The notes under the pieces: model-generated
The model's database searches: none
Seen by the model: only the letters and a program-made list of their open reading frames with translations
What the model was told of the DNA's origin: nothing
IMG/VR virus record: IMGVR_UViG_3300044856_000216
Coordinates: 127,916-191,915 of that record
Origin: a virus
Reading direction: 5' to 3' (one strand)
Length of the DNA: 64,000 nt
Program-made: the position numbers and the translations under genes
Shown: one piece after another, positions 676 through 34,791 of the stretch
How the letters are laid out: the number at the start of each line of letters is the position of its first letter
How positions within the stretch are numbered: position 1 is the first letter of the stretch

Positions 676-759
676 GGGTGGATATGCCTAGAGGCGAGGG
701 CAAGAGACTGTAAATCTCCCACATAAGAAACACCGTAGGTTCGACTCCTACTCCACCCA
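676..759 (+). tRNA. tRNA-Tyr (GTA), class II-like with an unpaired long variable region
   Basis: Acceptor GGGTGGA/TCCACCC. 3-bp D stem GCC/GGC. Anticodon loop CTGTAAA. T arm GTAGG-TTCGACT-CCTAC. Discriminator A. The 15-nt variable region has no obvious stem. Confidence 0.65.
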
Positions 760-950
760 CTATTGTCAGAAAGAGAAATCTTTCTTCTATTAAGAACATC
801 CATATAAGGAGCGTATGGCGGTGAGTTGACATCGTTAACAACTTGGGTGAACCTCAAGAGTGGTCAAGAGTGATAAAAACTCTTATAAAAGTGTAAGGCT
901 TTTGTATAATGGGCAAGCATTTAAAATCAATTACATAGTAAATAAATTAG

Positions 951-987
951 AGAAGCGATTTAGTCCACTACTATCTCGCTTCTTTTT
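951..987 (+). terminator. rho-independent terminator
   Basis: AGAAGCGA / TCGCTTCT 8-bp stem followed by TTTT. Confidence 0.6.
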
Positions 988-1011
988 GTATACGAAAGGA
1001 AGTGAGATTTA

Positions 1012-2046: not shown

Positions 2047-2361
2047 AAGATGCTGATAAAGCTTTTTGTTTAACACTTCGAATAAATACTATACTGTTAT
2101 CAGTATTTATAGGTATGCTTAATCCTAAGTTATGTAGCGAAAAAAGTGAAAGAAAGCACTTACAAATGAACAAAAATCGTTAGAGGTTTTTACTAGGGCG
2201 GTGCGTGCATTAAACTAGATTTGAGCTTTTGTAAAAAATATCAGATATTTTTTAAAGAAACAACAAGGAAGCATGAATGGATTGTCTAACTTTCTATTCT
2301 AAATAACTGGATGTGTACAGTCCAATATCAGCTAGTTAGTGCTTTATGCTGATTTTCTAAT

Positions 2362-2436
2362 GGATCGTTCGCCTAGTTGGTTATGGCACTACCCTGTCAC
2401 GGTAGAATAACATGGGTTCAAGTCCCATACGATTCG
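2362..2436 (+). tRNA. tRNA-Asp (GTC)
   Basis: Acceptor GGATCGT/ACGATTC. Anticodon arm CTACC-CTGTCAC-GGTAG. T arm ATGGG-TTCAAGT-CCCAT. Confidence 0.85.
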
Positions 2437-2440
2437 TTTT

Positions 2441-2511
2441 GGGGCATTAGTCAAAAGGTAAGACAACGGGTTTTCATCCCGTGAGTATCGGTTCGAGTCC
2501 GTTATGCCCTA
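2441..2511 (+). tRNA. tRNA-Glu (TTC)
   Basis: Acceptor GGGGCAT/ATGCCCT. Anticodon arm ACGGG-TTTTCAT-CCCGT. T loop TTCGAGT with one T-stem mismatch. Confidence 0.75.
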
Positions 2512-2575
2512 TTATAATTACCATTTAGGAATTTAACCTATATAAATAATTATTATATGTAGAGGAGCACATATT

Positions 2576-3337
2576 ATGGCATTAATTGATAAATATACAA
2601 ATGATGAATTCATAGATTTTGTAAAAAATTCTTTTTCTTATCGAGAATTAGCAAGAAAAATTGGATATAAATCTTATTCTGGTGATTTATCTCAAATATT
2701 AAAAAATAAAATTTTTGAATTGAATCTTTCTACAAATCATTTTGAAAGAGATAAAACAAAAGATATTACTAGAACTTTTGATAATATTTTTTGTAGTAAT
2801 TCAACGGCAGATCAGAAAACATTAAGAAAGTGGTATTTTGATGGACATTATACCCCTTATAGTTGTAAAATATGTGGTCAATTACCAGTTTGGAATGGAA
2901 AGGAATTAGTATTAACTCTTGATCATATAAACGGAAATAATCATGATGACAGATTGGAAAATTTAAGATGGGTATGTCCAAATTGTGATAGACAGTTAGA
3001 TACTTTTGGTGGGAAAAATATAAGTAAAAAAAATAATAAGAAATATTGTTTAGATTGTGGAATTGAAATTGGCAAAAAATCTACTTATTGTAAAAAATGT
3101 TCTCCTAAACATCGTAAAAATTTATACGAAGTAAAATTAAAAAAATCTGTGTTATATGAATCAGGTATCACTAGAGATAGATTAAAAGATTTGGTGCGCC
3201 AAAAATCTTTTGTAGATATTGGAAAAATATACGATGTATCAAATACTACAATAAAAGAATGGTGTAAAAAATTTAATTTACCATTTAGAAAAAAAGAAAT
3301 TGAATTATATACAGATAACGAATGGGAAAATATATAA
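2576..3337 (+). CDS. HNH homing endonuclease
   Basis: LDHINGNNHDDRLENLRWVCPNCDRQ is a beta-beta-alpha-Me HNH motif with CxxC pairs. The C-terminal tail (IGKIYDVSNTTIKEWCKKF) looks like a helix-turn-helix. The gene sits between tRNA genes. Confidence 0.85.
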   Translation: MALIDKYTNDEFIDFVKNSFSYRELARKIGYKSYSGDLSQILKNKIFELNLSTNHFERDKTKDITRTFDNIFCSNSTADQKTLRKWYFDGHYTPYSCKICGQLPVWNGKELVLTLDHINGNNHDDRLENLRWVCPNCDRQLDTFGGKNISKKNNKKYCLDCGIEIGKKSTYCKKCSPKHRKNLYEVKLKKSVLYESGITRDRLKDLVRQKSFVDIGKIYDVSNTTIKEWCKKFNLPFRKKEIELYTDNEWENI

Positions 3338-3560
3338 TTCAAGAACGAAATGCTGCGTTCAAGTCACGCCAGAGTCATTGTGCGGTAAACCTGATGTGAA
3401 AACCTATTTTTTGGATGCATACGAAATTTAGGTGTGTAAGCTCAACACTTGCTACCGCCCTATCAAATTATCCGTGGGCAACAACTACGCAGATTATTTT
3501 GATAAAGTCGTAATGAAAATAGTTTCATTTAGTTTAGAGAAAGATAATTTTTTAAGAAAA

Positions 3561-3589
3561 GAGTCATTTCCTTTGGAGATGGCTCTTTT
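3561..3589 (+). terminator. hairpin terminator upstream of tRNA-Trp
   Basis: GAGTCAT / ATGGCTC stem with one G-U pair, followed by TTTT. Confidence 0.5.
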
Positions 3590-3596
3590 GTTATAT

Positions 3597-3670
3597 ACGT
3601 CTTTAGTTTAATTGGTTAGAATATCAGACTCCAAATCTGAGAGATGTGGGTTCGACTCCTACAGGGCGTG
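3597..3670 (+). tRNA. tRNA-Trp (CCA)
   Basis: Acceptor ACGTCTT/AGGGCGT with two G-U pairs. Anticodon arm TCAGA-CTCCAAA-TCTGA. T arm GTGGG-TTCGACT-CCTAC. Confidence 0.8.
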
Positions 3671-3908
3671 TTTGTGTCAACTAAGATATATGCATATTCT
3701 TAGACTATACTGGTGTATAGGTGGCACTAAAACTGTGACGACAGTTGACTTGTTTATATGGTTCAAATCCATTCGCCTTATATATGAAAGAAATGAATGT
3801 GTAAATTTTAAGTATGATATAAGGTCAGGCGTTGGTATAAGCGAGGTTCAATTCCTCTACTCAAGTCTTGAATGTGTGAATTGCACTTTCATTGGAAAGG
3901 AGAATTGT

Positions 3909-25548: not shown

Positions 25549-28500
25549 ATGCCAGGAATGTATAAATATAGCATGGAGATTGAATCTAATGTCAAAAAGT
25601 TACTTTTGGACACAAAAGAACTCCAAGACAGAATGGATACTCTCGAAGGCAAAGAATATAAAATCAACTTAAATATTGATGAGAAAAAACTTGGAAATGT
25701 AATTTCCAATCTCGAAAAAATGCTTGACTCTCTTGGTAAGGGAACAGGTGATTTCAAACAGTTTGAGAATTTATCAAAGGAACTATCAAGTATTGTATCA
25801 GAAGTACAGAGTTTAAGTAAAGCTTTTGGTAAAGTAGATGATTCTGGTACGAAGACATTACTCTCTTCTATCCAAAATATTGATAAATCACTTTCTGAAC
25901 TGAGTCAGAATATTCTCAATGTTAATAAAAACATGAGTAATATGGGTGGCAATACGAGTGGTGCTGTCAAACAAGTGGAGAATATTAGTGATGCGTATCA
26001 AAACGCTGCAAAAGAAGCTGAGAAATTGGCTGATGCACAAAGTAAAATTGGACAGAAAACGAATATTTCATTAGGTGACTCTAAAGAGCAATCAACAGAA
26101 ATTGACTTATATCATAATTTAGAAAAGAGAAAAGTTACATATGATGAAATAATTGATAAAATTCAAACAATCATATCTCTTAAAGAAAAAGAAAAATCGT
26201 TAAGCAAAACTTCTGATGATACGAAACTCTACCAAAAATTATATGACGAAAATGATATCAATTGGGCTGGTGATACAGAAGGTACTATTAATAGAATATC
26301 AGATAGATTAAAAGAAATTTATATAAAATATAATGGTAAAATATCTTTAATTAATGAAAATGATATTCAAGAAGCCGCTTATCTGTTAGACATACTAAAA
26401 GGAGCAGGTGAATCACCTAATCTAAATAAATCTCAAGAAAAATTTTATCAGAATAAAAAATTTTCAAACGATTCATTGTTTGATAATATTCATGTTGATT
26501 CTCAAAAAACAGGAGAAATAGATAAAATCAACACAGAGTTGTCAGAAACATATCGTTGGTTTAATCAACTTGAGGGTGTATCTCTTAATGAAAATATAGC
26601 AAACGAAATTAAATCATTAATATCGGATATGCAAATTGGTGGAAAAAATGCTAATGAATATGCTAATGATTTATTAAAAATATTTAATATAGAAGTTGGC
26701 TCTAATTCTGTTGTCGAACAGCAAAATAAATTGCAATCTGAATTAAAAGAAACTGAATCACAGGCTGAAAAGACTACTATGGCTGTTAAAGAGGTATCTT
26801 CTACTGCTTCTACAGAGCAAAAGAAAGACGCATTTCCTTCTACCGAAGCTACTGCTTCTGTTGAGAAAACAACACAAGCAATTAGAGAAGAAAATAATGC
26901 TTTGGATGAAACAGTAAGTAAAGCCAAACAGGCGGCTTCTGAATCGACAAAAACTAGAGATATTGTTAGCCAGAATTGGTATCGTGAAAAAGGAACAGTT
27001 GTAGGCAAAGATTCAAAAGGCAACGATATAACTCGTGATGCTGATGAATTTTCTTTTGTGGAAAGATTAAAAAATGGTCAGTTACAAACAGTTCTGGCTA
27101 CATATGATGAGGAAACTGGCAAATGGGCAGAACAAGTTATTAATGTCAGAACTGCTTTTGAACAGGTAGAAAAAGCTATTATCAGTGCAGATAATAAGAT
27201 TGCTTCTTTAGAGATAGCAAAAGAAAGGACTCTTGCATCTCATCCAGGGTACGATGCTACTGCTGATGATAATCAGATTGCCATTGAAAGAAAAAAGAGA
27301 GATGAATTACAAGCAACTCTTAATCTTTATGGCAGCGAAAAGGAATATGTTTTTGAGATTGAAGCTGCTACAAAGAGAATTGCTGATAATCAGAAAAGAC
27401 TGAATAATAAGAAACAGTCACAGACTAATTTAAGACAAGCAGTTTCTGATGAAAAGGATGCAAAAGCCAACGAACAAGCAAATAAACGTGACGCAAAACA
27501 GGCACAAATTGAGGCAGAGAATATTAAATTAGCAGAACAGAAATCTATTTACAATGAGTTGATTGATTCTATTGATAGATATTCTACAGTTTCAAAACGA
27601 ATTGAAAGTGGCAAGGCTTTTGAGGGTGACTACGAAGAAGCTGCAAGATTGCAAGAAAAGATTGAAGAACTTCAAAACAATCCTATTTTATCACAAGAAC
27701 AGTTGGATGCTTCTCAGCGTAAGTTGGAGAAAATTGAAACTACATTAGAAGATATTGCAACTGCAAAAGCAAAAAGTGACTCTATTAAAGTTGATTCTGA
27801 AAATGTCAAAAATATTCAAGCTGAATGGGATAAAAATATAAAAGCAATCCAAGATTATATGGATGCTATGACAAAACTCAATAATCTTAAAGCTAAGGAT
27901 AAAGGTACTGGTAGTGAAGCAAATCAGATTGCGTTACAGACACAGAATGTTGAGGAATTAAAACAGGCTGCATGGGATGCACGAAAGAATTTGTCTTCTA
28001 TACAAGCAGAAAATCCTGATATCATCGCATGGAAACAATGGGTTGATATGATGGAACTATTCGATCAAGCTTCTAAAGGTTCTGCTGAATCAGCCGCAAA
28101 ACTCAAAGATGTATTAGACAACATAAAAGCTCCATCTCTTGATAAATATGAGAATAAACTAGCATCTTACCAGACTAAGAAAGGTGCTTATAATGCTACT
28201 ATCGCAAGGTTTAACGATGGTGGTTGGACAAGTGATGAATATTTAAAGAATGTACAGGCTGTCAAGGATGCTGTTAATGAGTATGAAACTCTGCTTAATG
28301 AATTAAAGGGCAAAGATGCTAGTTTGGTGACAAGTGATGATATTTCTAAATTGGACGAGTATGAAAAGAAAATCAAAGATGCTATCGCTACTGTCACTAA
28401 TATGTCAGCTGCTGAAAAGGGATATAACTTTGTTTCAGGTCAGAAAGAATTAGACAAGATTCACAAGCTTCTCAATGAAAATAGTAAGATGTCTTCTGAG

Positions 28501-29892
28501 GCAAAAGCTAAAATCAAGGCTTACTATACGGAAATTGAAAGTGGTAATCCTAGCATGAGTTTGGATAGAATTCATGGTGAGATTATGAAGATTTACAATG
28601 CTGAAGTTGAAGCTGGTCGTGCTGGCAGAAGTTTCTTTGATACATTAAAGAATAGTGGATTTCATCAATTAGCTGCTCAGATGTCAGGTATGTTTGGATT
28701 TTATGATGTTATTAATATTGGGAAACAAGCGATTAGTACAATTGTAAGTCTTGACGATGCTTTAGTTGATTTAAAGAAAACTACGGCAATGAACAAAACT
28801 CAGCTTGAGCAATACTATTATGACGCTAATGATGTTGCGAAACAGATGGGTGTAACTACAGAAGAGATTATTAACCAAAGTTCCGCTTGGTCTAGGCTTG
28901 GATACAATACTGCTGAAGCTTCTACGGAAATGGCAAAACTTAGTTCTCAGTTTGCTTCTATTTCTCCTGGAATGGGAGTTGATGAAGCTCAGAGCGGATT
29001 AGTCTCAATCATGAAAGCATGGTCAATAGATCCAGATCAAGTAAAGTCTGAAATTATGGACCCTATAAATCAGCTTGGAAACACAATGGCTGAAGACAAC
29101 CAAGATATTGTAGAGGGTATGGAACGTTCTGCCGCTGCACTTGCTGCTGTTGGTACTTCTACAAAAGATGCTTTTGCTTTATTTTCAGGTATACAAGAAG
29201 TTTTGCAAAATGCAGAAAAAAGTGGTACTTCCCTCAAGAGCGTTGCCTTACGACTGCGATCTTTTGACGAAACGACAGGAGAATATTCTGAGGATTTAGC
29301 AAATATCACAGGCGAATTAATAGATTTAACTAAAACTGCTGAACATGCAGAAGGAGTTTCTATTTTCAAACCTGGTTCAACTACAGAGTTCAAAGATTTA
29401 ACTGATTATTTCAGAGAGATTGCAGGTATCTGGGATGAGATGACACAGAAGCAGCAAAATGATTTTCTTATCAAGGCTTTTGGTCGTAATCAAGCTCAAG
29501 CAGGTGCTGCTCTTATTCAGAACTTTAAAGCTGTTGATAAAGCTCTCGCTGAAATGGGTGAAAGTGCTGGCAGCTCGGATAAAGAAATGGAAGCTGTAGA
29601 ATCCTCTCTTTCTTATAAAATCAACGCACTTAAGGAAACTTGGGTTGGCTGTGTGCAAGATATGATAGACAGAGGAGACTTAGGTACAATTGTAACTGGT
29701 CTTACAAAAGTCTCAGAAGCTATTACTTTCTTACTTGATAAATTGGGTATTCTTGGCTCTATTGGATTAGGAGCAGGAATATTCTCAGGAATTAAAAATG
29801 TCGGTGGGAATAAAATGCATTTCCCGATGAATATACTCGACAACATACATAATTTACTTTGGATACAAAGGTTTAGAGTATGTTATCCGTGA
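25549..29892 (+). CDS. tail tape measure protein, N-terminal part (TP901-type core domain)
   Basis: Long coiled coils are followed by the core VSLDDALVDLKKTTAMNKTQLEQYYYDANDVAKQMGVTTEEIINQSSAWSRLGYN...GLVSIMKAW. Then comes the hydrophobic Gly-rich segment LGILGSIGLGAGIFSGIKNVGG, which ends at nt 29808. 27 unrelated residues follow before the stop. Confidence 0.85.
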   Translation: MPGMYKYSMEIESNVKKLLLDTKELQDRMDTLEGKEYKINLNIDEKKLGNVISNLEKMLDSLGKGTGDFKQFENLSKELSSIVSEVQSLSKAFGKVDDSGTKTLLSSIQNIDKSLSELSQNILNVNKNMSNMGGNTSGAVKQVENISDAYQNAAKEAEKLADAQSKIGQKTNISLGDSKEQSTEIDLYHNLEKRKVTYDEIIDKIQTIISLKEKEKSLSKTSDDTKLYQKLYDENDINWAGDTEGTINRISDRLKEIYIKYNGKISLINENDIQEAAYLLDILKGAGESPNLNKSQEKFYQNKKFSNDSLFDNIHVDSQKTGEIDKINTELSETYRWFNQLEGVSLNENIANEIKSLISDMQIGGKNANEYANDLLKIFNIEVGSNSVVEQQNKLQSELKETESQAEKTTMAVKEVSSTASTEQKKDAFPSTEATASVEKTTQAIREENNALDETVSKAKQAASESTKTRDIVSQNWYREKGTVVGKDSKGNDITRDADEFSFVERLKNGQLQTVLATYDEETGKWAEQVINVRTAFEQVEKAIISADNKIASLEIAKERTLASHPGYDATADDNQIAIERKKRDELQATLNLYGSEKEYVFEIEAATKRIADNQKRLNNKKQSQTNLRQAVSDEKDAKANEQANKRDAKQAQIEAENIKLAEQKSIYNELIDSIDRYSTVSKRIESGKAFEGDYEEAARLQEKIEELQNNPILSQEQLDASQRKLEKIETTLEDIATAKAKSDSIKVDSENVKNIQAEWDKNIKAIQDYMDAMTKLNNLKAKDKGTGSEANQIALQTQNVEELKQAAWDARKNLSSIQAENPDIIAWKQWVDMMELFDQASKGSAESAAKLKDVLDNIKAPSLDKYENKLASYQTKKGAYNATIARFNDGGWTSDEYLKNVQAVKDAVNEYETLLNELKGKDASLVTSDDISKLDEYEKKIKDAIATVTNMSAAEKGYNFVSGQKELDKIHKLLNENSKMSSEAKAKIKAYYTEIESGNPSMSLDRIHGEIMKIYNAEVEAGRAGRSFFDTLKNSGFHQLAAQMSGMFGFYDVINIGKQAISTIVSLDDALVDLKKTTAMNKTQLEQYYYDANDVAKQMGVTTEEIINQSSAWSRLGYNTAEASTEMAKLSSQFASISPGMGVDEAQSGLVSIMKAWSIDPDQVKSEIMDPINQLGNTMAEDNQDIVEGMERSAAALAAVGTSTKDAFALFSGIQEVLQNAEKSGTSLKSVALRLRSFDETTGEYSEDLANITGELIDLTKTAEHAEGVSIFKPGSTTEFKDLTDYFREIAGIWDEMTQKQQNDFLIKAFGRNQAQAGAALIQNFKAVDKALAEMGESAGSSDKEMEAVESSLSYKINALKETWVGCVQDMIDRGDLGTIVTGLTKVSEAITFLLDKLGILGSIGLGAGIFSGIKNVGGNKMHFPMNILDNIHNLLWIQRFRVCYP

Positions 29893-30350
29893 GATACACG
29901 GTGATAAACACCCTATAACGTCTGAATAGACTTGTATGCCATAAACATACAACTGGGAATTACGTCAAACTCACACTACTCTCCTATTTTGGTAACAAAT
30001 TAGGCTATAGTGACAATGTGTGAACTCGTATGGTCAGGTCGGAAGCTTCCTTATTATAAGGAATAACCGCCACAGTAATGCTATGGGTGAGATTCAGTAT
30101 ATGAAATGATACTGATGAGAATAGACATTCGATGCTATTATGGAGCGTAGCCATAAAATTATGAGTTAGGAACTTATCTCCTACTTCTACGTTAAGTTTG
30201 AACCAATTGTTCCTTGGTAGATAAGATGGAACAAAAAGAAGTAAATCTCGATTTCTTTCGAGGTAAAAACAGAGAATAATAAAATAGAGAGCAGATTACT
30301 CTACTCTCTTATATATGAAAATGATATAATATTCCCACCAGATTTTCTAA

Positions 30351-30431
30351 CTACGCACAAAGCTTAATGACAATAATTAATGCCACTATTGCTATGATAA
30401 AACTTGTACTAACCTTTATCTTACACTTCAT
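30351..30431 (-). CDS. 26-aa hydrophobic peptide (type I toxin-like)
   Basis: MKCKIKVSTSFIIAIVALIIVIKLCA. GGAAGGAGA lies 8 nt upstream of the ATG. A hairpin (AGAGAG/CTCTCT plus T-rich tail) lies downstream on the minus strand. Confidence 0.5.
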   Translation of the reverse strand: MKCKIKVSTSFIIAIVALIIVIKLCA

Positions 30432-30588
30432 GGTAATTGTCTCCTTCCTATGTTAATAAATCCTATTGGGATTTGCATTGAAAGGCGTAATGCTCAAGCT
30501 AGTGCCCGATACAACGACCTATGTAGTTATACTTATCTGGCTCTCCAACACTTATCTTTTGAATAAGTTTTCCACATGGAGAATAATA

Positions 30589-30622
30589 AAATGAGGACTG
30601 TCGTGATGACCAGCCCTCATTT
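30589..30622 (-). terminator. hairpin terminator for the minus-strand small gene
   Basis: AAATGAGG / CCTCATTT 8-bp stem, followed on the minus strand by TTTATTATT. Confidence 0.55.
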
Positions 30623-30667
30623 AAGGAATAAAAGGAAATAAATTATGACTTATACAAAAGAATAAAA

Positions 30668-30847
30668 TTATTTAGATTGATGTTTGTCTTTTGCAATCAT
30701 GTGAGTTATGTATTTTACTTTCTCATTACTGAGTTCAGGATGTTTGCAAATCAGTATTGTGACTACTAATTTGAGAATCAAATATCCAAAGTAACATACT
30801 CCTACACTGCCTAAGACTTTCAATAATTGTGTTAGACCTACTAACAA
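30668..30847 (-). CDS. 59-aa small membrane protein (TTG start)
   Basis: AGGGAGGG lies 5 nt before the TTG. Sequence LVGLTQLLKVLGSVGVCYFGYLILKLVVTILIC followed by a charged tail. One residue below the ORF-track length cut-off. Confidence 0.45.
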   Translation of the reverse strand: MLVGLTQLLKVLGSVGVCYFGYLILKLVVTILICKHPELSNEKVKYITHMIAKDKHQSK

Positions 30848-31094
30848 TTCTACCCTCCCTTCTGTAGAAATTTCATAACATTAGGGAAATCGTATTGCCC
30901 AGAACGGGCTGAATTTATTTCCAAAATAGTGTTTGATTCTACGCAAACACTCCCACATGGTAACTAAAGAAAAGTACCAAGCACTTGCCGTGACGATGGA
31001 CTGCAATGTGGTCATACAGTCGTAGTATGCTTGGTGCTATTATACCATGTAGTATTTTTGATTAACAGATAGAACATTTTGTCGATTTTTGGAA

Positions 31095-31163
31095 CACAAA
31101 AATAGAATATTTTGTGAAATTGAGTTCACATCTATTTACAAAATTTAGTATCTGTGTTATCTT
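31095..31163 (+). promoter_or_regulatory. promoter with an upstream inverted repeat, in front of the DUF262 gene
   Basis: Inverted repeat CACAAAAATA-gaa-TATTTTGTG (31095-31116). Direct repeats ATAGAAYATTTTGT. -35 TTTACA (31135-31140), 17-nt spacer, TGtTATCTT (31155-31163). Confidence 0.4.
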
Positions 31164-31204
31164 CAAAATAGTAAAAATTTTCAATTTTTGAAGGAGGTAA
31201 CACG

Positions 31205-32203
31205 ATGAAAAATTCTAGTAAAGAAAGAACTCTACAGTGGATAAATACTCAGAATAAAAAGGGTAATATATCCTTTGAACACCGTTTACAGCGTCCGACT
31301 GGGCAGTGGAATAATCGCATGAAAAGTCTATTGATTCATAGTTTATTAAGTGGTATTCCAGTTAATCCAATTTATGTTGTAGAGGAAGAAAATGTAATCT
31401 ATCCGTTAGATGGCTCTCAGAGAACATCAACTTGTATTGATTATATTAATGATGTATTTTCATTAAGCAAAGATACTCCAAATATATCTATTGCTGTAAA
31501 AGAAAATGGAGAACAAACAATTAAGGAATATGAAATTGCAGGAAAGAAATTTAAAAAGCTTGATAACGAGGTGAAAGAAACCCTTCTTGCTTGTACCTTA
31601 GAATTCTGCACACTGTCTGATTATACAGATGAGGAAGTAAAAATCATGTTCGCTCGTCAGAATTCAGGAAAACCTTTGAATGGTAAATTGCTTCGTGTGG
31701 TTCATGAATCAGATGAGTTCAGCGAAATGGTCTACTCTCTCGCTAATCATCCATTTATGGATAAAATCATGTCAAAGACACAGCGTAAGAATGGAACAGA
31801 CAGAGATACAATTATTCAAGCTATGATGCTTATCTCTTCTAATCAAGAACAGGAATTTACATCTTTTAGAACAAAAGATATTGATACCTATGTAACTGAT
31901 TATGCAGATCAGTATCTTGATAGAGCTGATACTTTAAAAGAGGCTATGGATAGATTTAATGAAGCATTTGATGGTGAAATAAAAATTCCATCCACAAGTA
32001 TCCCACAAATTTTATATAGTGGTTATAGAATCGTTAAAGATAAGAAGTCATTCTCTCGTCTCGTAGAAAAGGTGTCTGAATTTATTGCAACTTATGATTC
32101 TAATGAGGAATATAAACAGTATGTTCAGAGTGGTACAGGCAGCAAAGAAAATGTCAAAGGACGTTTTGATTATTGGCGTGGAATTGTAAAGACATTGCAG
32201 TAA
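31205..32203 (+). CDS. DUF262 (ParB/GmrSD N-terminal domain-like) protein without a DUF1524 nuclease domain
   Basis: HRLQRPTGQWNNRMKSLLIHSLLSGIPVNPIYV...YPLDGSQRTSTCIDYI and MFARQNSGKPLNGKLL match the DUF262 signature (QR..W, DGQQR-like). AAGGAGG SD. Confidence 0.65.
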   Translation: MKNSSKERTLQWINTQNKKGNISFEHRLQRPTGQWNNRMKSLLIHSLLSGIPVNPIYVVEEENVIYPLDGSQRTSTCIDYINDVFSLSKDTPNISIAVKENGEQTIKEYEIAGKKFKKLDNEVKETLLACTLEFCTLSDYTDEEVKIMFARQNSGKPLNGKLLRVVHESDEFSEMVYSLANHPFMDKIMSKTQRKNGTDRDTIIQAMMLISSNQEQEFTSFRTKDIDTYVTDYADQYLDRADTLKEAMDRFNEAFDGEIKIPSTSIPQILYSGYRIVKDKKSFSRLVEKVSEFIATYDSNEEYKQYVQSGTGSKENVKGRFDYWRGIVKTLQ

Positions 32204-32214
32204 AAAAAAGATAA

Positions 32215-32240
32215 AGAGTAGTCGGTGGCTACTCTTCTTT
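32215..32240 (+). terminator. rho-independent terminator
   Basis: AGAGTAG / CTACTCT stem followed by TCTTTC. Confidence 0.6.
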
Positions 32241-32341
32241 CATGTTCGTTTATAAACATACGTTCTGAATAGTATTATGCAATATCTTGTCGTATAATAT
32301 TTGGTATAAATTATCAAAAATATACGAGAGGAGAATTAGAA

Positions 32342-33037
32342 ATGGTAAAATATGTTTATTGTGGATTATATGATATTGATCTTCATGGCGAAACATATGC
32401 AGAATTTGATGGTGAACATCCAACGATGATAGTTCAAACTAAAAAAGAACCTAAAATGTACATTGTAATACCATTTACTTCATACGAACCGAACAGGTGG
32501 AAGAAGTTAAAGAAAAAGATGTGTTGTAGAGTTGAATCAACTAATTCTATTGCAAGAATTGATAGGATTAAAATTATTAACGATTCAGATATTACCAAAA
32601 GATGGATTGATATTGAAAAGAAAAGTTTACTTGTACCGAGCAAAGAAGATGTTGAAAAAGTGTTAAAGAAGTCTTTAGCATATATAGAAGCGTCCTTTAA
32701 TCAATCCTATTCATTTTATTTAGATTATTTAAAAGAGCGTGAAGTTTTGGAAGATAATATTAAAAAGACATTTATAGATTTTGATTTTAATAATTCTATA
32801 TTTACGTTTGATTTTACAGAAGATAATGTTACAAAAATATCTTTTCCAATGGGTTATGTAAAATCTATGGCAATGATAGATATACAAGATTTCTTTAATA
32901 ATATATTTAATAGAAGGAAATTCACTGTTAAAATTATAGATTCCAAAAAACTAATTGTTGTTTCTGTTAAAAATAGTGATAAAAAAATGTTGACAATCAA
33001 AGAGAAGTATGATAGTATAATCTCAACAGAAGGGTAG
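32342..33037 (+). CDS. MazF/PemK-like toxin domain fused to a ~115-aa unknown C-terminal domain
   Basis: The N-terminus aligns by eye with EndoA/MazF. GLYDIDLHGETYAEFDGEHPTMIVQT corresponds to GDVYFADL..GSEQGGVRPVLVIQ. YIVIPFTS is the T-S strand. ARIDRIKIINDSDI corresponds to EQIRTIDKQRL. GAGAGGAGAA SD. Confidence 0.5.
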   Translation: MVKYVYCGLYDIDLHGETYAEFDGEHPTMIVQTKKEPKMYIVIPFTSYEPNRWKKLKKKMCCRVESTNSIARIDRIKIINDSDITKRWIDIEKKSLLVPSKEDVEKVLKKSLAYIEASFNQSYSFYLDYLKEREVLEDNIKKTFIDFDFNNSIFTFDFTEDNVTKISFPMGYVKSMAMIDIQDFFNNIFNRRKFTVKIIDSKKLIVVSVKNSDKKMLTIKEKYDSIISTEG

Positions 33038-33205
33038 CTTTACTATATGGGTATAAATCCAACTGTTATTTTTGTATACCACAGCATTGAGAGCATTCTT
33101 TATGATGTAAGGCTAAGTGCATTTGATGTATAATTTTTATTTGATTTACATATAGTATAATAGCGTAAAGGGTATCGAAAGTGTAAATCCAAACGCATTG
33201 AGATT

Positions 33206-33236
33206 AAAAAGCATCTGCTAACGCAGGTGCTTTTTA
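33206..33236. terminator. bidirectional hairpin terminator
   Basis: AGCATCTGC-taac-GCAGGTGCT stem flanked by AAAAA and TTTTT. Confidence 0.6.
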
Positions 33237-33358
33237 TATTATAATAAACAACAATAAAGAGCAAATGTATTCACACTTGCTCTGCTCTTCTATCCTAATT
33301 CATCTTGGCATAGTCGAAACATATATTTAGACGGTTCTCTTTTTCAATACAAACAAAA

Positions 33359-33385
33359 AGAGTAGTAATTTCTCACTACTCTTCT
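33359..33385 (+). terminator. hairpin carrying the ACTACTCT motif
   Basis: AGAGTAGT / ACTACTCT 8-bp stem followed by TCTATCCC. Confidence 0.45.
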
Positions 33386-33416
33386 ATCCCATTTAAAAAT
33401 CAGAGCCGCAGTTATT

Positions 33417-33626
33417 GTGGATTTAAAAGGATCTAATGATATACTTTCAGAGTTGGCGCAAAGTCTATATTTTAAATATAAAGAACAACTATCAGTATTA
33501 CAATGGAAAAATATTATGAGGGAGGTTGTTGATATAACTTCAAAATATGATAATACAATAGATACAAATATAAATTTTGAAGTTATTCGAAAAATAGAAA
33601 ATAATGGGAATATATTTTACAAATGA
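33417..33626 (+). CDS. doubtful small ORF (possible gene remnant)
   Basis: GTG start without an SD. A 56-aa ORF in another frame overlaps its end (33604-33774), which suggests a frameshifted remnant. Confidence 0.2.
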   Translation: MDLKGSNDILSELAQSLYFKYKEQLSVLQWKNIMREVVDITSKYDNTIDTNINFEVIRKIENNGNIFYK

Positions 33627-33812
33627 TTATTTTGATATCTCTAATATAATAGAGAGAATAAAAGATGAATTGTTTTTAAATAGGTATCCAATATTCAAAT
33701 TAGATTTAGATTTAATTAGAAGTAGGAATTTTAAGACAGGTATTTCACCTGTCTTATTTAATTGGGAAAAATAAGTAGATAATAATTCATACACATATTT
33801 ATAATAATAAAG

Positions 33813-33842
33813 AAAAAAGACTCATCTTTTGACAAGTCTTTT
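33813..33842. terminator. bidirectional terminator downstream of the repressor gene
   Basis: AAAAAGACT / AGTCTTTTT stem with A and T tracts on both sides. Confidence 0.55.
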
Positions 33843-33886
33843 ACTACTCTATTATTATTTAGAAAGGTCGTGAAATTATGCCATGA

Positions 33887-33976
33887 ATGAAAGGTATTTA
33901 TAGATTTAATCCTGCTTTGGTTGGAGTAATTATAGGATTGATTATTGATTTAATCTTATGCGTAGTACTTCCCTAA
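33887..33976 (+). CDS. 29-aa hydrophobic peptide candidate
   Basis: MKGIYRFNPALVGVIIGLIIDLILCVVLP. Weak or no SD. Convergent with the repressor gene. Confidence 0.25.
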   Translation: MKGIYRFNPALVGVIIGLIIDLILCVVLP

Positions 33977-34006
33977 TAAAAACTCTACAAAATACTTATG
34001 ACAATA

Positions 34007-34612
34007 TTATAATATGATCTTTACAATCTTCCCAATAATTCTATAATTATTGTCATAAATATATCTATCTTCATGTGAAAATTCTCTATTTAAGGATTTA
34101 AACCATATATGGTCAGATTGTTGATTGTATTGTTTACATATTACGTCTCCGTTTATTTCAGCAATGACATTTTGACCATCTAACTCATATGGATCGAATT
34201 TTGTATCTAGTAAAACAACGCTATCGTCTGGAATTGTGTCTTCCATGCTTTTTCCTTTTATATGAATACCAAAAACAGCATTGTCAGGAATATAATCGGT
34301 AATAATATCTTCTATTTCAAAATCTCCATCTCTACCTATCATGCCTGCACCTGCGGCTGCTTGTTGATCGTATACTGGAAATCTATAGATATTCTGTATA
34401 TTCATAGATTTTATGTTTGTCCTATCTAGTAAATAATCAACAGAACAATTAAAGTAAGAAGCAATTTTACAAAGTGCTTCTGCATTAGGGGTGGACTTTT
34501 TACTAGGGTTTAACCAATCTGATATATTTCCAGTAGAAATATTTGTAGCTTTTGAAAGTCTTGCGCTTTCTCCTCTTTTATTTAATAGACTTTTTAAATG
34601 AATAAGTTCCAT
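34007..34612 (-). CDS. CI/LexA-like repressor (XRE HTH plus S24 peptidase domain)
   Basis: N-terminal HTH ESARLSKATNISTGNISDW. C-terminal GKSMEDTIPDDSVVLLD (Ser nucleophile) and VICKQY (Lys). Confidence 0.8.
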   Translation of the reverse strand: MELIHLKSLLNKRGESARLSKATNISTGNISDWLNPSKKSTPNAEALCKIASYFNCSVDYLLDRTNIKSMNIQNIYRFPVYDQQAAAGAGMIGRDGDFEIEDIITDYIPDNAVFGIHIKGKSMEDTIPDDSVVLLDTKFDPYELDGQNVIAEINGDVICKQYNQQSDHIWFKSLNREFSHEDRYIYDNNYRIIGKIVKIIL

Positions 34613-34668
34613 ATAATTACCTCTCTTCTACATAATTTACCATATTTTTCCAATATAATAAAGCTATA

Positions 34669-34728
34669 TTGACATTTTCGTGTATGCGAGTTATTATATT
34701 AACACTCGTTTATGCGAGATTTTATATT
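34669..34728 (+). promoter_or_regulatory. rightward sigma-A-type promoter overlapped by two direct operator-like repeats
   Basis: TTGACA (34669-34674), 17-nt spacer, TATTAT (34692-34697). Repeats CGTGTATGCGAGTTATTATATT (34679-34700) and CGTTTATGCGAGATTTTATATT (34707-34728) match at 19 of 22 positions. Confidence 0.6.
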
Positions 34729-34791
34729 GCAAACATAAGTTCTCGTTGTCGAGAATGGTTCAATTTGGTAAAATGAAAGGAGATTTTTGTT

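What the first reader, a model, noticed from the sequence alone, without database searches (positions are those of the whole stretch)
29893..31204. A 1.3-kb stretch with no tracked ORF hides two minus-strand hydrophobic peptide genes with strong RBSs, terminators and a candidate antisense promoter
No ORF of 60 aa or longer is tracked here, which is unusual in such a densely coding genome. Two small minus-strand genes read clearly by eye:
- A 26-aa peptide, MKCKIKVSTSFIIAIVALIIVIKLCA (30431-30351). GGAAGGAGA lies 8 nt upstream, and a terminator hairpin lies downstream.
- A 59-aa TTG-initiated membrane protein (30847-30668). AGGGAGGG lies upstream, and an 8-bp terminator (30589-30622) lies downstream.

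An extended -10 element, TGATATAAT (30322-30330), sits on the plus strand. It would launch an RNA antisense to the whole 26-aa ORF. This is the classic type I toxin-antitoxin layout, as in Fst/TxpA-like and prophage-borne clostridial systems.

A long imperfect hairpin (ACCAAGCA ... TGCTTGGT, about 30975-31037) lies in the upstream leader region of the 59-aa gene.

The first ~350 nt (29893-30240) contain several hairpins, including an 8-bp palindrome TTCCTTAT-T-ATAAGGAA (about 30047-30063). I cannot assign them a function.
Basis: partly seen in the sequence, partly recalled or inferred. Interest (0 to 1): 0.65.

Follow-up and report, generated by a model that had tools for sequence, protein, structure and literature searches.

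The report
Giant cargo-carrying intron splitting tail gene
The apparently empty 1.3 kb is the front part of a 7.9-kb self-splicing (group I) intron that splits a phage tail tape-measure gene; the intron carries passenger genes, among them two tiny membrane-peptide genes, one of which is laid out like a toxin-antitoxin module.

Summary
The 1447-aa ORF ending at 29892 is only exon 1 of a tape-measure protein (TMP) gene. Its homology stops at 29805 (...IKNVG). The rest of the TMP starts at 37661, with no start codon or RBS of its own.

Between them lies a 7,855-nt group I intron (29806-37660).
- Bases 29806-30232 are the ribozyme core. These are the "unassigned hairpins", including the TTCCTTAT/ATAAGGAA palindrome.
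- P1, P10, a terminal G, and helices P2-P8 are supported by covariation across four intron sequence types in about 80 related phages.
- Rfam does not recognise it.

The remaining 7.4 kb is a hypervariable cargo tail.
- It holds the two minus-strand peptide genes, which are real: pN/pS about 0.33, with conserved RBSs.
- It also holds an NsnA-like DUF262 gene and a CI-like repressor.

The 26-aa cassette has a conserved convergent extended -10 promoter and a sequestered RBS. That is a type I toxin-antitoxin layout, but toxicity and the antisense RNA are untested.

Group I introns in TMP genes are known. One carrying a multi-gene accessory island with antisense peptide cassettes appears new.

The parts
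25549..29805 (+). Tape-measure protein (TMP) exon 1, 1419 codons, ending ...GIFSGIKNVG
   Evidence: Pfam PF10145 hit at aa 1093-1312. Homology to about 30 relatives stops at the KNVG/KNFD codons.
29806..37660 (+). Group I intron, 7,855 nt: a 5' ribozyme core followed by a 7.4-kb cargo tail. The 3' end is ...AGUAUG, with the terminal G at 37660.
   Evidence: Splice sites are defined by P1/IGS and P10 pairing, by the conserved AGUA(U/C)G|AUAUUC junction in 9 loci, and by ACG replacing ATG in 3 loci. An intron-less homologue, L117, aligns across the junction.
29806..29892 (+). Read-through 'tail' of the annotated 1447-aa ORF (GNKMHFPMNILDNIHNLLWIQRFRVCYP*). This is intron sequence, not protein.
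   Evidence: The tail differs completely between intron types A-G and coincides with ribozyme helices L1, P10, P1' and P2.
29806..30232 (+). Ribozyme core (type A).
- L1 hairpin: 29806-29825
- P10 strand GAAUAU: 29829-29834
- IGS ACUCGACA: 29835-29842
- P2/P2a: 29843-29883
- P2.1: 29887-29901
- P3 5' strand CACCC: 29909-29913
- Two hairpins: 29920-29952
- P4 CUGG/UCAG: about 29953 and 30034
- P5 extension: 29962-30030
- P6 GG(U)CGG/CCGCC: 30037-30042 and 30067-30071
- P6a: 30047-30063
- P7 5' strand AAUG(C)U: 30077-30082
- P3 3' strand GGGUG: 30085-30089
- P8: 30094-30115
- J8/7: 30116-30124
- P7 3' strand ACAUU: 30125-30129
- 3' domain with GUUUGA: 30197-30202
- Pseudoknot GUUCC/GGAAC: 30209-30213 and 30228-30232
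   Evidence: - The module is 99% identical in phages whose TMP is only 35-73% identical.
- There are four sequence types in 81 loci.
- Per-type helix table.
- RNAalifold independently predicts P1, P2, P2a, P2.1, P6, P6a, P7, P8 and the pseudoknot stem.
- 96% of cells are paired and 22 of 44 pairs have compensatory changes, against 1-5 in slid controls and 0 of 500 shuffles.
- Coordinates.
30247..30309 (-). Two tandem minus-strand terminators (30262-30247 and 30309-30286) plus the cassette border motif AGAGAATAATAAAATAG (30271-30287). They end the 26-aa gene's transcript just before the ribozyme core.
   Evidence: Terminator scan. The motif is repeated at 30578-30594 and is conserved at cassette borders in relatives.
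30322..30330 (+). Extended -10 box TGATATAAT. It is the candidate promoter of an RNA antisense to the 26-aa ORF (candidate antitoxin).
   Evidence: It lies in a 3' UTR that is nearly identical across the 26-aa and 27-aa peptide families. It is weakened in L007, L018/L023 and L035. It is near-identical to the peptide's own promoter in relatives.
30351..30431 (-). 26-aa membrane peptide gene: MKCKIKVSTSFIIAIVALIIVIKLCA. SD at 30448-30440; anti-SD GCCUUUCA at 30486-30479.
   Evidence: Six distinct CDS variants, pN/pS 0.33, conserved GGAGG. The SD is sequestered in the MFE fold, z = -4.5.
30550..30568 (.). Covarying hairpin ACUUAUC-UUUUGA-AUAAGU. It would be the 5' stem-loop of the 26-aa mRNA and, read on the plus strand, a hairpin plus UUUUCC that could terminate the antisense RNA.
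   Evidence: Compensatory variants across cassettes: CTTATCC/GATAAG, TTTATCC/GATAAA, GCACTG/CAGTGC, GTGTTG/CAACAC.
30591..30620 (-). Terminator hairpin of the 59-aa gene, followed by UUUUAUUAUUCUC. In this window that run also supplies the only -10-like box (TATTAT, 30588-30583) for the 26-aa gene.
   Evidence: MFE fold, promoter scan, alignment of cassette 5' ends.
30668..30847 (-). 59-aa membrane protein gene with a TTG start: MLVGLTQLLKVLGSVGVCYFGYLILKLVVTILICKHPELSNEKVKYITHMIAKDKHQSK. SD GGGAGGG at 30859-30853.
   Evidence: pN/pS is 0.34. The TTG start and SD are conserved in 6 distinct CDS. The family has 88 clusters, all unnamed, and occurs on contigs up to 1.1 Mb.
30870..31047 (-). Candidate 5' leader and promoter of the 59-aa gene.
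- Extended -10 TGGTATAAT: 31047-31039
- Long hairpin: 31035-30976
- Covarying hairpin: 30950-30929
- GCCC/GGGC hairpin: 30909-30897
   Evidence: The module is about 90% conserved in 6 relatives. The hairpin GUGUUUG/CAAACAC is replaced by GUGUCAA/UUGACAC. Fold. The promoter was read from the sequence and is an inference.
31079..32203 (+). Promoter-like sites, SD (31190-31197) and CDS (31205-32203) of a DUF262/GmrSD_N protein resembling the defence protein NsnA. This is the first plus-strand cargo gene.
   Evidence: Pfam PF03235, E 5e-11. PADLOC NsnA, E 1e-31, full length. Promoter scan.
37632..37637 (+). UCAAAC, the complement of the invariant ribozyme GUUUGA (30197-30202). It is a candidate tether that brings the remote 3' splice site to the core.
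   Evidence: It is present 20-27 nt upstream of the 3' splice site in 8 of 9 loci with otherwise dissimilar AT-rich tails. L012 has ACAACA, which pairs with the adjacent UGUUGU.
37661..42814 (+). TMP exon 2 (1717 codons plus stop), starting IFKTFDSDIDNV.... The spliced TMP would be 3136 aa.
   Evidence: phrog_4211 tape-measure profile, positions 925-2244 of 2625, E 4e-21. There is no SD upstream and the frame is open from 37580. In-frame joining.

Best explanation
The 1.3-kb stretch is the 5' part of a 7,855-nt group I intron (29806-37660). The intron interrupts the tape-measure gene of an SPbeta-like temperate phage of gut Lachnospiraceae.

**Shown by sequence comparison**
- Exon 1 ends at 29805 and exon 2 begins at 37661. 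They join in frame to give a 3136-aa TMP.
- Bases 29806-30232 fold into a covariation-supported ribozyme with group I topology: P1/IGS, adjacent P10, P2-P8 with a P3/P7 pseudoknot, P/Q/S-like motifs and a terminal G.
- All the variable cargo sits 3' of this core.

**Inferred**
- During late transcription, the TMP pre-mRNA is read through the cargo.
- The core docks the remote 3' splice site through P10, the terminal G and a GUUUGA/UCAAAC pairing.
- The exons are then ligated, so the cargo costs the phage no tail function.

**The rest of the finding is cargo that faces the other way**
- It consists of two self-contained minus-strand cassettes, each with promoter/leader, RBS, small membrane peptide and terminator. 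Tandem terminators stop their transcription before the ribozyme.
- Each has its own RBS and terminator and a candidate promoter, so they are probably expressed from the prophage while the late operon is silent.
- The 26-aa cassette is organised as a type I toxin-antitoxin-like module. It has a sequestered RBS and a conserved convergent promoter whose RNA (and later the intron RNA itself) would be fully antisense to the peptide mRNA.
- I put this reading at about 40%. The peptide could instead be a non-toxic membrane factor.
- The last about 130 nt (31079-31204) are the promoter and RBS of the next cargo gene, an NsnA-like DUF262 protein.
For: **The gene is split**
- The 1718-aa ORF matches the C-terminal two thirds of a TMP profile and the Sundance TMP just after the point where exon 1 stops matching.
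- All about 30 relatives lose homology at the same KNVG/KNFD codon. After it come type-specific junk tails.

**Splice sites**
- The exon end and the IGS covary: GUCGGU/GCCGAC (types B, D), UUGAU/GUCAA (type E), UUCGU/GCGAA (L028).
- GAAUAU, immediately 5' of the IGS, is complementary to the exon-2 start AUAUUC.
- The 3' end is AGUA(U/C)G in 9 of 9 loci. It reads ACG, which is not a start codon, in L003, L025 and L029. No SD precedes exon 2.
- Intron lengths range from 1,023 to 7,855 nt with the same ends.
- An intron-less TMP (L117) aligns in one HSP across the junction: IKNVG|IFKTF against SESSG-ILKTF.

**Ribozyme**
- It is 99% identical in phages with 35-73% identical TMPs.
- The four types keep every helix with different sequences.
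- RNAalifold independently finds P1, P2, P2a, P2.1, P6, P6a, P7 and P8.
- 96% of cells are paired and 22 of 44 pairs are compensatory, against 24-47% paired and 1-5 compensatory pairs when slid. No shuffle of 500 reaches this.

**Cargo genes**
- pN/pS is 0.33-0.43 and RBSs are conserved.
- The 3' UTR and convergent promoters are conserved.
- The putative mRNAs are structured.
- The DUF262 gene matches NsnA.

**Host and lifestyle**
- Relatives occur in Lachnospiraceae genomes and on contigs up to 1.1 Mb, next to YomU-X tail genes.

**Precedent**
- Group I introns occur in prophage TMP genes (PMC2504315).
- IStrons combine a 5' ribozyme with 3' cargo (PMC4227781).
Against: - No Rfam family, including Intron_gpI RF00028, matches even at E <= 10 with lax filters.
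- In the window's type A, the last exon base U faces C rather than the canonical G. P1 is 6 bp with a G-U pair one position earlier. Types B, D, E and L028 do have the U-G pair.
- I assigned P3, P4 and the P5 extension by hand, type by type. P3 and P4 are only 4-5 bp. The bulged base of P7 lies nearer the P3 side than in textbook introns.
- The plus strand of the cargo contains terminator-like hairpins (32214-32236, 33732-33756, 34705-34756).
- The 3' splice site is 7.4 kb from the core, so cis-splicing needs read-through and long-range docking.
- No homing endonuclease or transposase was found to explain the intron's spread.
- There are no RNA or protein data of any kind.
- For the toxin-antitoxin reading: there is no homology to known toxins, and this window's 26-aa cassette lacks the strong promoter seen in relatives.
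Confidence: 0.8

Rival explanations
1. There is no splicing. The phage simply encodes its tape measure as two separate proteins, and 29.8-37.7 kb is an ordinary intergenic 'moron' island between them. On this view the hairpins at 29893-30240 are incidental or regulatory.
For: - The island has its own promoters and terminators and holds genes on both strands.
- Rfam sees no intron.
- In this window exon 2 happens to begin right after an in-frame ATG.
Against: - That codon is ACG in L003, L025 and L029, and no SD precedes it.
- The exon end and IGS covary across four exon variants.
- P10 is complementary to exon 2.
- The 427-nt module has group I topology with 22 compensatory pairs.
- The module is 99% conserved across divergent hosts.
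- Exon-1 tails are type-specific junk of 0-30 codons.
- A continuous homologue spans the junction.
Confidence: 0.06
2. One reading: the stretch is an intergenic gap whose function is one or two type I toxin-antitoxin loci. These would be hydrophobic toxins on the minus strand with an antisense RNA from TGATATAAT, as in the Fst, TxpA or clostridial prophage systems.
For: - The peptide genes are real and under purifying selection.
- The convergent extended -10 promoter is conserved.
- The RBS is sequestered and the mRNAs are structured.
- SPbeta-type prophages are known, from general knowledge, to carry type I modules (bsrG/SR4, yonT/SR6).
Against: - It explains only 30267-31047 of the stretch. 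It does not explain 29806-30232, which is the ribozyme.
- No known toxin family matches.
- No antisense promoter was found for the 59-aa gene.
- The antisense -10 box is degraded in L007, L018/L023 and L035.
- In this window the 26-aa gene has lost its own strong promoter.
Confidence: 0.35
3. The intron is split in practice (trans-splicing). Exon 1 plus the ribozyme would be made as one RNA that ends at an internal terminator. Exon 2, with about 30-70 nt of intron tail, would be made from a promoter near 37590-37625. The two would associate through GUUUGA/UCAAAC, P10 and the terminal G.
For: - Plus-strand terminator-like sites lie inside the cargo.
- The distance in cis is 7.4 kb.
- A conserved UCAAAC tether lies just upstream of the 3' splice site.
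- The AT-rich region upstream of exon 2 is promoter-like (sequence).
Against: - The intermolecular contacts amount to only about 12 bp.
- L012 has the same ends with just 1,023 nt and no plus-strand terminator, so cis-splicing is sufficient there.
- As far as I know (general knowledge), no bacterial or phage group I intron is known to trans-splice naturally.
Confidence: 0.08
4. The intron is a dead relic. The ribozyme no longer splices, the TMP is broken, and the element is a defective prophage whose cargo is all that is maintained.
For: [quoted passage not shown]
- There are internal terminators.
- Many relatives sit in bacterial chromosomes.
Against: - Every helix is intact in all five type-A variants, and their differences fall in loops or wobble positions.
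- Both huge exons are open and in frame in 9 loci.
- The family is abundant as viral contigs of 80-200 kb.
- The same core is kept at 99% identity across TMPs that have diverged to 35%.
Confidence: 0.08

Closest known systems
Group I introns in prophage tape-measure genes of the Bacillus cereus group (TMP-IVS1-3; Tourasse & Kolsto 2008, PMC2504315), and phage group I introns in general
   Same: [quoted passage not shown] The insertion site is conserved and near-identical copies occur in divergent hosts.
   Different: - Those introns are short, are found with RF00028 or RNAweasel, and carry at most one homing-endonuclease ORF.
- This one is invisible to Rfam and has no recognisable homing endonuclease.
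- It carries 0.6-7.4 kb of variable multi-gene cargo, partly on the opposite strand.
IStrons (CdISt1, BcISt1; PMC4227781)
   Same: The architecture matches: a group I ribozyme at the 5' end, cargo downstream of the core, and a 3' splice site after the cargo. IStrons also have non-canonical 5' splice-site contexts in some groups, and a stem linking the 5' part to the 3' end has been proposed.
   Different: - IStron cargo is an IS200/IS605 or IS607 transposon (TnpA/TnpB), and the ribozyme is IA2-like with P7.1/P7.2.
- Here no transposase is found and no P7.1/P7.2 is seen.
- The cargo here is accessory, defence-like and regulatory genes plus small antisense cassettes.
T4 nrdD (sunY) intron: core at the 5' end, ORF, and a remote 3' splice junction that activates the core (Michel et al. 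1992; cited from general knowledge, not checked here)
   Same: The catalytic core is entirely 5' of the passenger DNA. The 3' splice site is brought back by short pairings (P9.0/P10-type).
   Different: The distance there is about 0.8 kb with one ORF on the same strand. Here it is up to 7.4 kb with internal promoters, terminators and antisense genes. The tether proposed here (GUUUGA/UCAAAC) is inferred only from conservation.
Type I toxin-antitoxin modules of Firmicute prophages (fst/RNAII, txpA/ratA, bsrG/SR4, yonT/SR6, C. difficile prophage modules; from general knowledge)
   Same: - A hydrophobic peptide of 26-59 aa with a strong SD.
- A long structured 5' UTR that hides the SD.
- A convergent promoter just past the stop codon, giving a fully overlapping antisense RNA.
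- Location in an SPbeta-like prophage.
   Different: - There is no sequence similarity to any catalogued toxin family.
- Toxicity and the antisense RNA are unverified.
- The module lies inside an intron, so the host gene's own pre-mRNA is also antisense to it.
Phage 'moron' and defence hotspots between conserved structural genes
   Same: A hypervariable set of accessory genes (NsnA-like DUF262, CI-like repressor; Bro/ANT and PemK in relatives) is flanked by conserved late genes. Cassettes are swapped at conserved border sequences.
   Different: The hotspot is not between genes. It lies inside a coding sequence and is made harmless by splicing.

Membership tests
Group I intron | [quoted passage not shown] | tested here: met
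   In the window, UGUCGG pairs with UCGACA (6 bp). The exon end and IGS covary in other types: GUCGGU/GCCGAC, UUGAU/GUCAA, UUCGU/GCGAA.
Group I intron | [quoted passage not shown] | tested here: not met
   In the window's type A, the terminal U (29805) faces C. The pair is met in types B, D, E and L028. Type C ends in C. Exceptions of this kind are documented for IStrons (PMC4227781).
Group I intron | P10: sequence immediately 5' of the IGS pairs with the start of the 3' exon | tested here: met
   GAAUAU (29829-29834) pairs with AUAUUC (37661-37666), 6 of 6. Other loci give 5-6 of 6.
Group I intron | The intron ends with G (omega-G) | tested here: met
   The 3' end is AGUA(U/C)G in 9 of 9 loci.
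Group I intron | Conserved core: P3-P9 with the P3/P7 pseudoknot, P4-P6 domain, and J8/7 | tested here: met
   - The strand order P3-P4-P4'-P6-P6'-P7-P3'-P8-P7' is the same in all four types, with different sequences.
- P/Q-like motifs are CGGGAA and AAUCCG(C/A)(A/U)GG. J8/7 is (A/G)AGAAUA(U/G).
- Sources.
- P3 and P4 were assigned by hand, and P5 is unresolved.
Group I intron | Recognised by the curated covariance model (Rfam RF00028) | tested here: not met
   No hit at the gathering threshold or at E <= 10 on 456 nt, on 5.7 kb, or on 7 relatives.
Group I intron | Exons are contiguous in intron-less homologues | tested here: met
   The L117 TMP ORF is continuous, and a single HSP crosses the junction. 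The Sundance TMP is also continuous.
Group I intron | Guanosine-dependent self-splicing | not testable with these tools
   This needs an in vitro transcription and splicing assay or RT-PCR.
IStron | Group I ribozyme at the 5' end, cargo between the core and the 3' splice site | tested here: met
   The core is always the first 425-470 nt in types A-D, and all length variation is 3' of GGAAC.
IStron | The cargo is an IS200/IS605 or IS607 element (TnpA/TnpB) | tested here: not met
   Pfam, PHROGs, NCBIfam and PADLOC scans of all cargo ORFs of 180 aa or more show no transposase.
Type I toxin-antitoxin system | Small (<60 aa) hydrophobic protein-coding gene | tested here: met
   The 26-aa and 59-aa ORFs have pN/pS of 0.33 and 0.34 and a conserved SD.
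Type I toxin-antitoxin system | A cis-encoded antisense RNA overlapping the toxin mRNA | tested here: inconclusive
   For the 26-aa and 27-aa families, a convergent extended -10 box is conserved in most cassettes and a plus-strand terminator-like hairpin is present. None was found for the 59-aa gene. There are no transcript data.
Type I toxin-antitoxin system | Homology to a catalogued toxin family (Fst, Hok, Ldr, TisB, Ibs, TxpA, ...) | tested here: not met
   In a Pfam-A scan at E <= 1, the best hit is Hol_Tox at E 0.31, far below its cut-off. There were no PHROG or PADLOC hits. T1TAdb is not available here.
Type I toxin-antitoxin system | The peptide is toxic and is neutralised by the RNA | not testable with these tools
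   This needs expression experiments.

The most novel reading that the evidence does not exclude
The 3' tail of this intron family would be a dedicated, splice-protected 'cargo bay'. It would let temperate phages park a fast-changing set of defence, regulatory and toxin cassettes inside an essential late gene.

The intron RNA would do double duty. Once late transcription starts, the pre-mRNA or excised intron is a multi-kilobase antisense RNA against every minus-strand cassette. It would then act as a built-in antitoxin or off-switch that couples cargo expression to the lysogeny-to-lysis transition.

The ribozyme itself would be a group I lineage outside current models. It would select a splice site up to 7 kb or more away through a short tether.
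Probability: 0.25. Interest if true: 0.88.

Novelty: new variant of a known kind. Interest (0 to 1): 0.72.

Why it matters
**Annotation**
- Two 'genes' and a 7.9-kb 'island' in a whole family of abundant gut Lachnospiraceae phages are really one 3,136-aa tape-measure gene plus an intron.
- Pipelines that rely on Rfam will keep mis-calling them.

**RNA biology**
- This is a well-populated group I-like ribozyme lineage: at least 4 sequence types here, plus at least 2 unmodelled types at the same site.
- Current covariance models miss it.
- It appears to splice across 1-8 kb of foreign DNA.
- That makes it a natural system for studying remote 3' splice-site selection.

**Phage ecology**
- Introns may serve as safe harbours for accessory and defence genes inside essential genes.
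- That would be a new route for cargo to hitch-hike and to spread by recombination in flanking conserved exons.

**Small proteins**
- The region yields two conserved families of 26-27-aa and 59-aa membrane peptides with a type I toxin-antitoxin-like layout, in organisms where such modules are barely charted.

Tried and rejected
**Searches that found nothing**
- Rfam at gathering and at E <= 10 on the window, on the 456-nt core, and on relatives. The only returns were tRNAs, chance snoRNA-level hits, and a RAGATH-18 in L012.
- DNA search of the stretch against 50,697 GenBank phages: no match.
- First genome-contig scan with the spliced junction peptide: nothing. The second scan, with an alignment, gave 7 loci.
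- PDB sequence search for the Zn-ribbon ORF next to the 3' splice site: nothing meaningful. NCBIfam on the cargo genes added nothing.
- Literature searches for an intron with defence or accessory cargo in phages found no description.

**Ideas considered and dropped**
- Group II intron. There is no GUGYG, the intron starts are variable, and there is no domain V hit.
- A DNA element excised by site-specific recombination. No recombinase is in the island and there are no flanking direct repeats.
- A MITE. The 21-nt imperfect inverted repeat 29792-29812 / 30330-30350 has a 10-bp perfect core, but about 14 such pairs are expected by chance in 5.5 kb, and module borders in relatives do not respect it.
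- A hammerhead. The CUGAUGAG at 30112-30119 is part of P8/J8/7, and there is no Rfam support.
- An early reading of GAUAAGAU as J8/7 with GGAAC as P7. I replaced it once the real P7/P8 were found upstream. That segment is a 3' peripheral pseudoknot domain.
- An early P3 candidate (GGAA/GGUU just before P4). I rejected it because within-type-B variants co-vary with the upstream candidate instead: UGGAA/UUCCA against UAGGG/UCCUA.


Full report
**1. The observation**

- No ORF of 60 aa or more lies in 29893-31204.
- The 26-aa ORF is at 30431-30351, with GGAAGGAGA 8 nt upstream and a minus-strand terminator at 30309-30286.
- The TTG-initiated 59-aa ORF is at 30847-30668, with GGGAGGG upstream and a strong hairpin plus U-run at 30620-30591.
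- TGATATAAT is at 30322-30330.
- The long hairpin is at 30976-31035, and the TTCCTTAT-T-ATAAGGAA palindrome is at 30047-30063.
- Terminator-like sites are about 7-fold enriched over shuffles in this part of the window.

**2. The context changes the reading**

The ORF that ends at 29892 is a tape-measure protein (TMP; PF10145).
- Against the 2528-aa TMP of Brevibacillus phage Sundance, it aligns only up to Sundance residue 1085.
- The 1718-aa ORF at 37658-42814 picks up at Sundance residue 1107. It also matches positions 925-2244 of the PHROG TMP profile.

So one TMP gene is split by about 7.9 kb.

A scan of IMG/VR gave 31 related loci from 80-200-kb phages. In all of them TMP homology stops at the same codon (...KNVG...KNFD). 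The reading frame then runs for 0-30 codons into sequence that differs by 'type'.

**3. Splice sites**

5' splice site:
- Immediately downstream of the break there is always a stretch complementary to the last exon bases, and it changes when the exon changes.
- The pairs are GUCGGU/GCCGAC (types B, D), UUGAU/GUCAA (type E) and UUCGU/GCGAA (L028). In each of these the last exon U lies opposite G.
- In the window (type A) the guide is ACUCGACA at 29835-29842. It gives 6 bp, but the last U faces C.
- Directly 5' of the guide lies GAAUAU, the exact complement of AUAUUC at 37661-37666.

3' splice site:
- In nine loci where both ends are visible, the insert ends AGUA(U/C)G and exon 2 starts AUAUUC/AUAUUU/ACAUUC in frame.
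- The 'ATG' of the window's 1718-aa ORF is ACG in L003, L025 and L029. No Shine-Dalgarno sequence precedes it.
- Insert lengths are 1,023, 3,429, 3,483, 4,809, 5,130, 5,136, about 5,142, 6,075 and 7,855 nt.

Intron-less homologue:
- A distant TMP in a Candidatus Limimonas MAG (L117) is uninterrupted. It aligns in a single HSP across the predicted junction: IKNVG|IFKTF against SESSG-ILKTF.

Joined, the window's TMP would be 1419 + 1717 = 3136 aa.

**4. The ribozyme**

Conservation and types:
- Window 29792-30239 is 99% identical in L006, L025, L026, L027 and L029, whose TMPs are only 35-73% identical.
- A motif search (GTTCCT N4-12 GATAAGATGGAAC) found 81 loci. All lie at this TMP site and fall into four sequence types, A-D.

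Helices:
- Comparing the types gives a consistent set of helices in group I order.
- These are P1; an L1 hairpin; P2/P2a; P2.1 followed by GAUAAA; P3; P4 with P- and Q-like motifs (CGGGAA ... AAUCCG(C/A)(A/U)GG); a P5 extension; P6/P6a; P7 with one bulged base; P3'; P8; an AGAAUAU-like J8/7; and P7'.
- After these comes a 3' domain with an invariant GUUUGA and a loop-to-tail pseudoknot, GUUCC/GGAAC.
- Every helix is fully paired in each type with different sequences.
- Within type B, P3 switches from UGGAA/UUCCA to UAGGG/UCCUA.

Independent checks:
- RNAalifold on 16 sequences recovers P1, P2, P2a, P2.1, P6, P6a, P7, P8 and the pseudoknot stem.
- For those 44 pairs, 96% of cells are paired. 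Slid controls give 24-47%.
- 22 pairs carry compensatory changes, against 1-5 in slid controls.
- The covariation score is 0.434, against at most 0.112. No shuffle of 500 reaches the observed values.

The 'several hairpins' are P2.1 to P8.

Caveats:
- P3, P4 and P5 are my manual assignments.
- Type A lacks the U-G pair.
- The bulge in P7 is not where textbooks put it.
- Rfam finds nothing even at E <= 10.
- Types E and L028 are a different, roughly 590-nt structured RNA at the same site. RNAalifold predicts 149 pairs there, 25 with compensatory changes.

**5. Reaching a remote 3' splice site**

The core ends at GGAAC (30232), and all length variation is downstream of it.
- The last about 70 nt before exon 2 are AT-rich and unconserved, except for UCAAAC 20-27 nt upstream of the junction in 8 of 9 loci. 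In the window it is at 37632-37637.
- UCAAAC is the complement of the invariant GUUUGA of the ribozyme.
- In type B the complementarity extends to 9 bp in L003. In L012 it shifts to ACAACA/UGUUGU.
- I propose this as a tether, together with P10 and the terminal G. It rests on conservation only.
- Plus-strand terminator-like hairpins inside the cargo are the main difficulty for cis-splicing. Late-gene read-through or trans association are the ways out.

**6. The rest of the finding is cargo**

BLASTN against the relatives shows sharp module borders at 30239/30255, 30267, 30336, 30575/30576 and 30846. A repeated border motif, AGAGAATAATAAAATAG, occurs at 30271 and 30578.

26-aa peptide:
- It has six CDS variants, and a related 27-aa family (MKFT...) has five.
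- pN/pS is 0.33 and 0.43, with GGAGG 7-9 nt upstream of the ATG in all.
- The 3' UTR is more conserved than the coding sequence and is shared by both families. Its reverse complement carries TGATATAAT.
- In relatives the peptide's own promoter is the almost identical ATGATATAATATT, about 150 nt upstream of the ATG. It is followed by a covarying 5' stem-loop and a C/U-rich anti-SD.
- In the window that promoter is missing. The cassette is fused to the 59-aa gene's terminator, whose U-tract offers only TATTAT.
- The modelled mRNA folds with z = -4.5 and hides its SD.

59-aa protein:
- pN/pS is 0.34, and the TTG start and SD are conserved.
- It belongs to an unnamed family of 88 clusters. Members occur on contigs up to 1.1 Mb and in a Eubacterium sp. 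genome.
- Its leader is about 90% conserved and contains a covarying hairpin, the long hairpin and a TGGTATAAT box. The modelled mRNA folds with z = -4.3.
- Neither peptide matches any Pfam, PHROG or PADLOC family.

Other cargo:
- Bases 31079-31204 are the promoter and RBS of a DUF262/GmrSD_N gene. It matches the PADLOC defence protein NsnA over its full length.
- Further cargo in the window comprises a 231-aa unknown, a CI/LexA-like S24 repressor, a 736-aa unknown, and a double Zn-ribbon ORF that always abuts the 3' splice site.
- Relatives carry Bro-N/ANT, PemK, RusA and HTH genes in the same place.

**7. Organism**

Relatives lie in Lachnospiraceae, Faecalimonas, Kineothrix and Eubacteriales genomes. 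They sit next to YomU/V/W/X-type tail genes. This is therefore an SPbeta-like temperate phage of gut Clostridia. That fits cargo being expressed from the prophage while the late TMP operon is silent.

**8. Comparison with what is known**

- Group I introns in prophage TMP genes are documented for the B. cereus group (PMC2504315).
- The architecture of a 5' ribozyme with 3' cargo is that of IStrons (PMC4227781).
- A core activated by a remote 3' junction is known from T4 sunY (from general knowledge).

Compared with all of these, three things are different here.
- The ribozyme escapes the curated model.
- The cargo is a hypervariable multi-gene accessory island of 0.6-7.4 kb, not a homing endonuclease or an IS.
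- Part of the cargo is antisense to the intron, including cassettes with a type I toxin-antitoxin layout.

Four literature searches found no description of such an arrangement. Absence from this library is not proof of novelty.

**9. Verdict**

The small genes are real. The type I-like layout of the 26-aa cassette is supported by comparison but is functionally untested.
- The dominant feature was missed: a cargo-carrying group I intron splitting the tape-measure gene.
- Confidence in the intron reading is about 0.8.
- Confidence that the 26-aa cassette is a true type I toxin-antitoxin module is about 0.4.
- Novelty: a new variant of a known kind.

Noticed in passing
window 33040-34000: A second ORF-poor stretch lies inside the same intron tail. 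It has three minus-strand terminator-like hairpins (33283-33258, 33385-33356, 33842-33815), one plus-strand terminator (33732-33756), small ORFs of 29-69 aa, and a sub-threshold Rfam BTnc231 match at 33205-33317(-) (37.5 bits against a gathering score of 80.4). It probably holds more small cassettes of the same kind.
   Followed up: no
L012:10972-11696; L025:10909-13091; L024:8980-10001; L026/L027:8234-10001; L028:1523-3152: Relatives have further interruptions of 0.7-2.2 kb at other positions inside TMP exon 1. The window's exon 1 is uninterrupted there. These are likely additional introns, and Rfam does not detect them either.
   Followed up: partly
L007:11219-11790, L028:3947-4545 and relatives: At the same TMP codon, other phages carry a different structured RNA of about 590 nt (types E/G), unrelated in sequence to types A-D. 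RNAalifold predicts 149 pairs, 25 with compensatory changes. P1 has a proper U-G pair. A third type (F; L009, L013 and others) was not modelled.
   Followed up: partly
window 37029-37589 (-): A 186-aa ORF with two CxxC...CxxC zinc ribbons flanking a charged helix sits on the minus strand directly against the 3' splice site. It does so in the window and in L005, L006 and L027, and it is truncated to 16 codons in the minimal L012 intron. It has no recognisable nuclease domain. It could be the intron's mobility or maturase-like factor.
   Followed up: partly
window 31205-32203 (+): The DUF262/GmrSD_N protein matches the PADLOC defence component NsnA over its full length (E 1e-31). Versions of it only about 39-49% identical occupy the same slot in many relatives, so the cargo gene is being exchanged between phages.
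   Followed up: partly
window 34007-34612 (-) and 34620-34790: A CI/LexA-like S24 repressor with a divergent promoter region (TTGACA-17-TATTAT) faces a 736-aa protein of unknown function. This is an immunity-like switch sitting inside a tail-gene intron.
   Followed up: no
L012:4595-4669: There is a RAGATH-18 RNA (RF03064, 70 bits) upstream of the tail genes in a relative. No counterpart in the window reaches the gathering threshold.
   Followed up: no
window 676-3671: There are four tRNA genes (Tyr, Asp, Glu, Trp) near the left end of the window.
   Followed up: no
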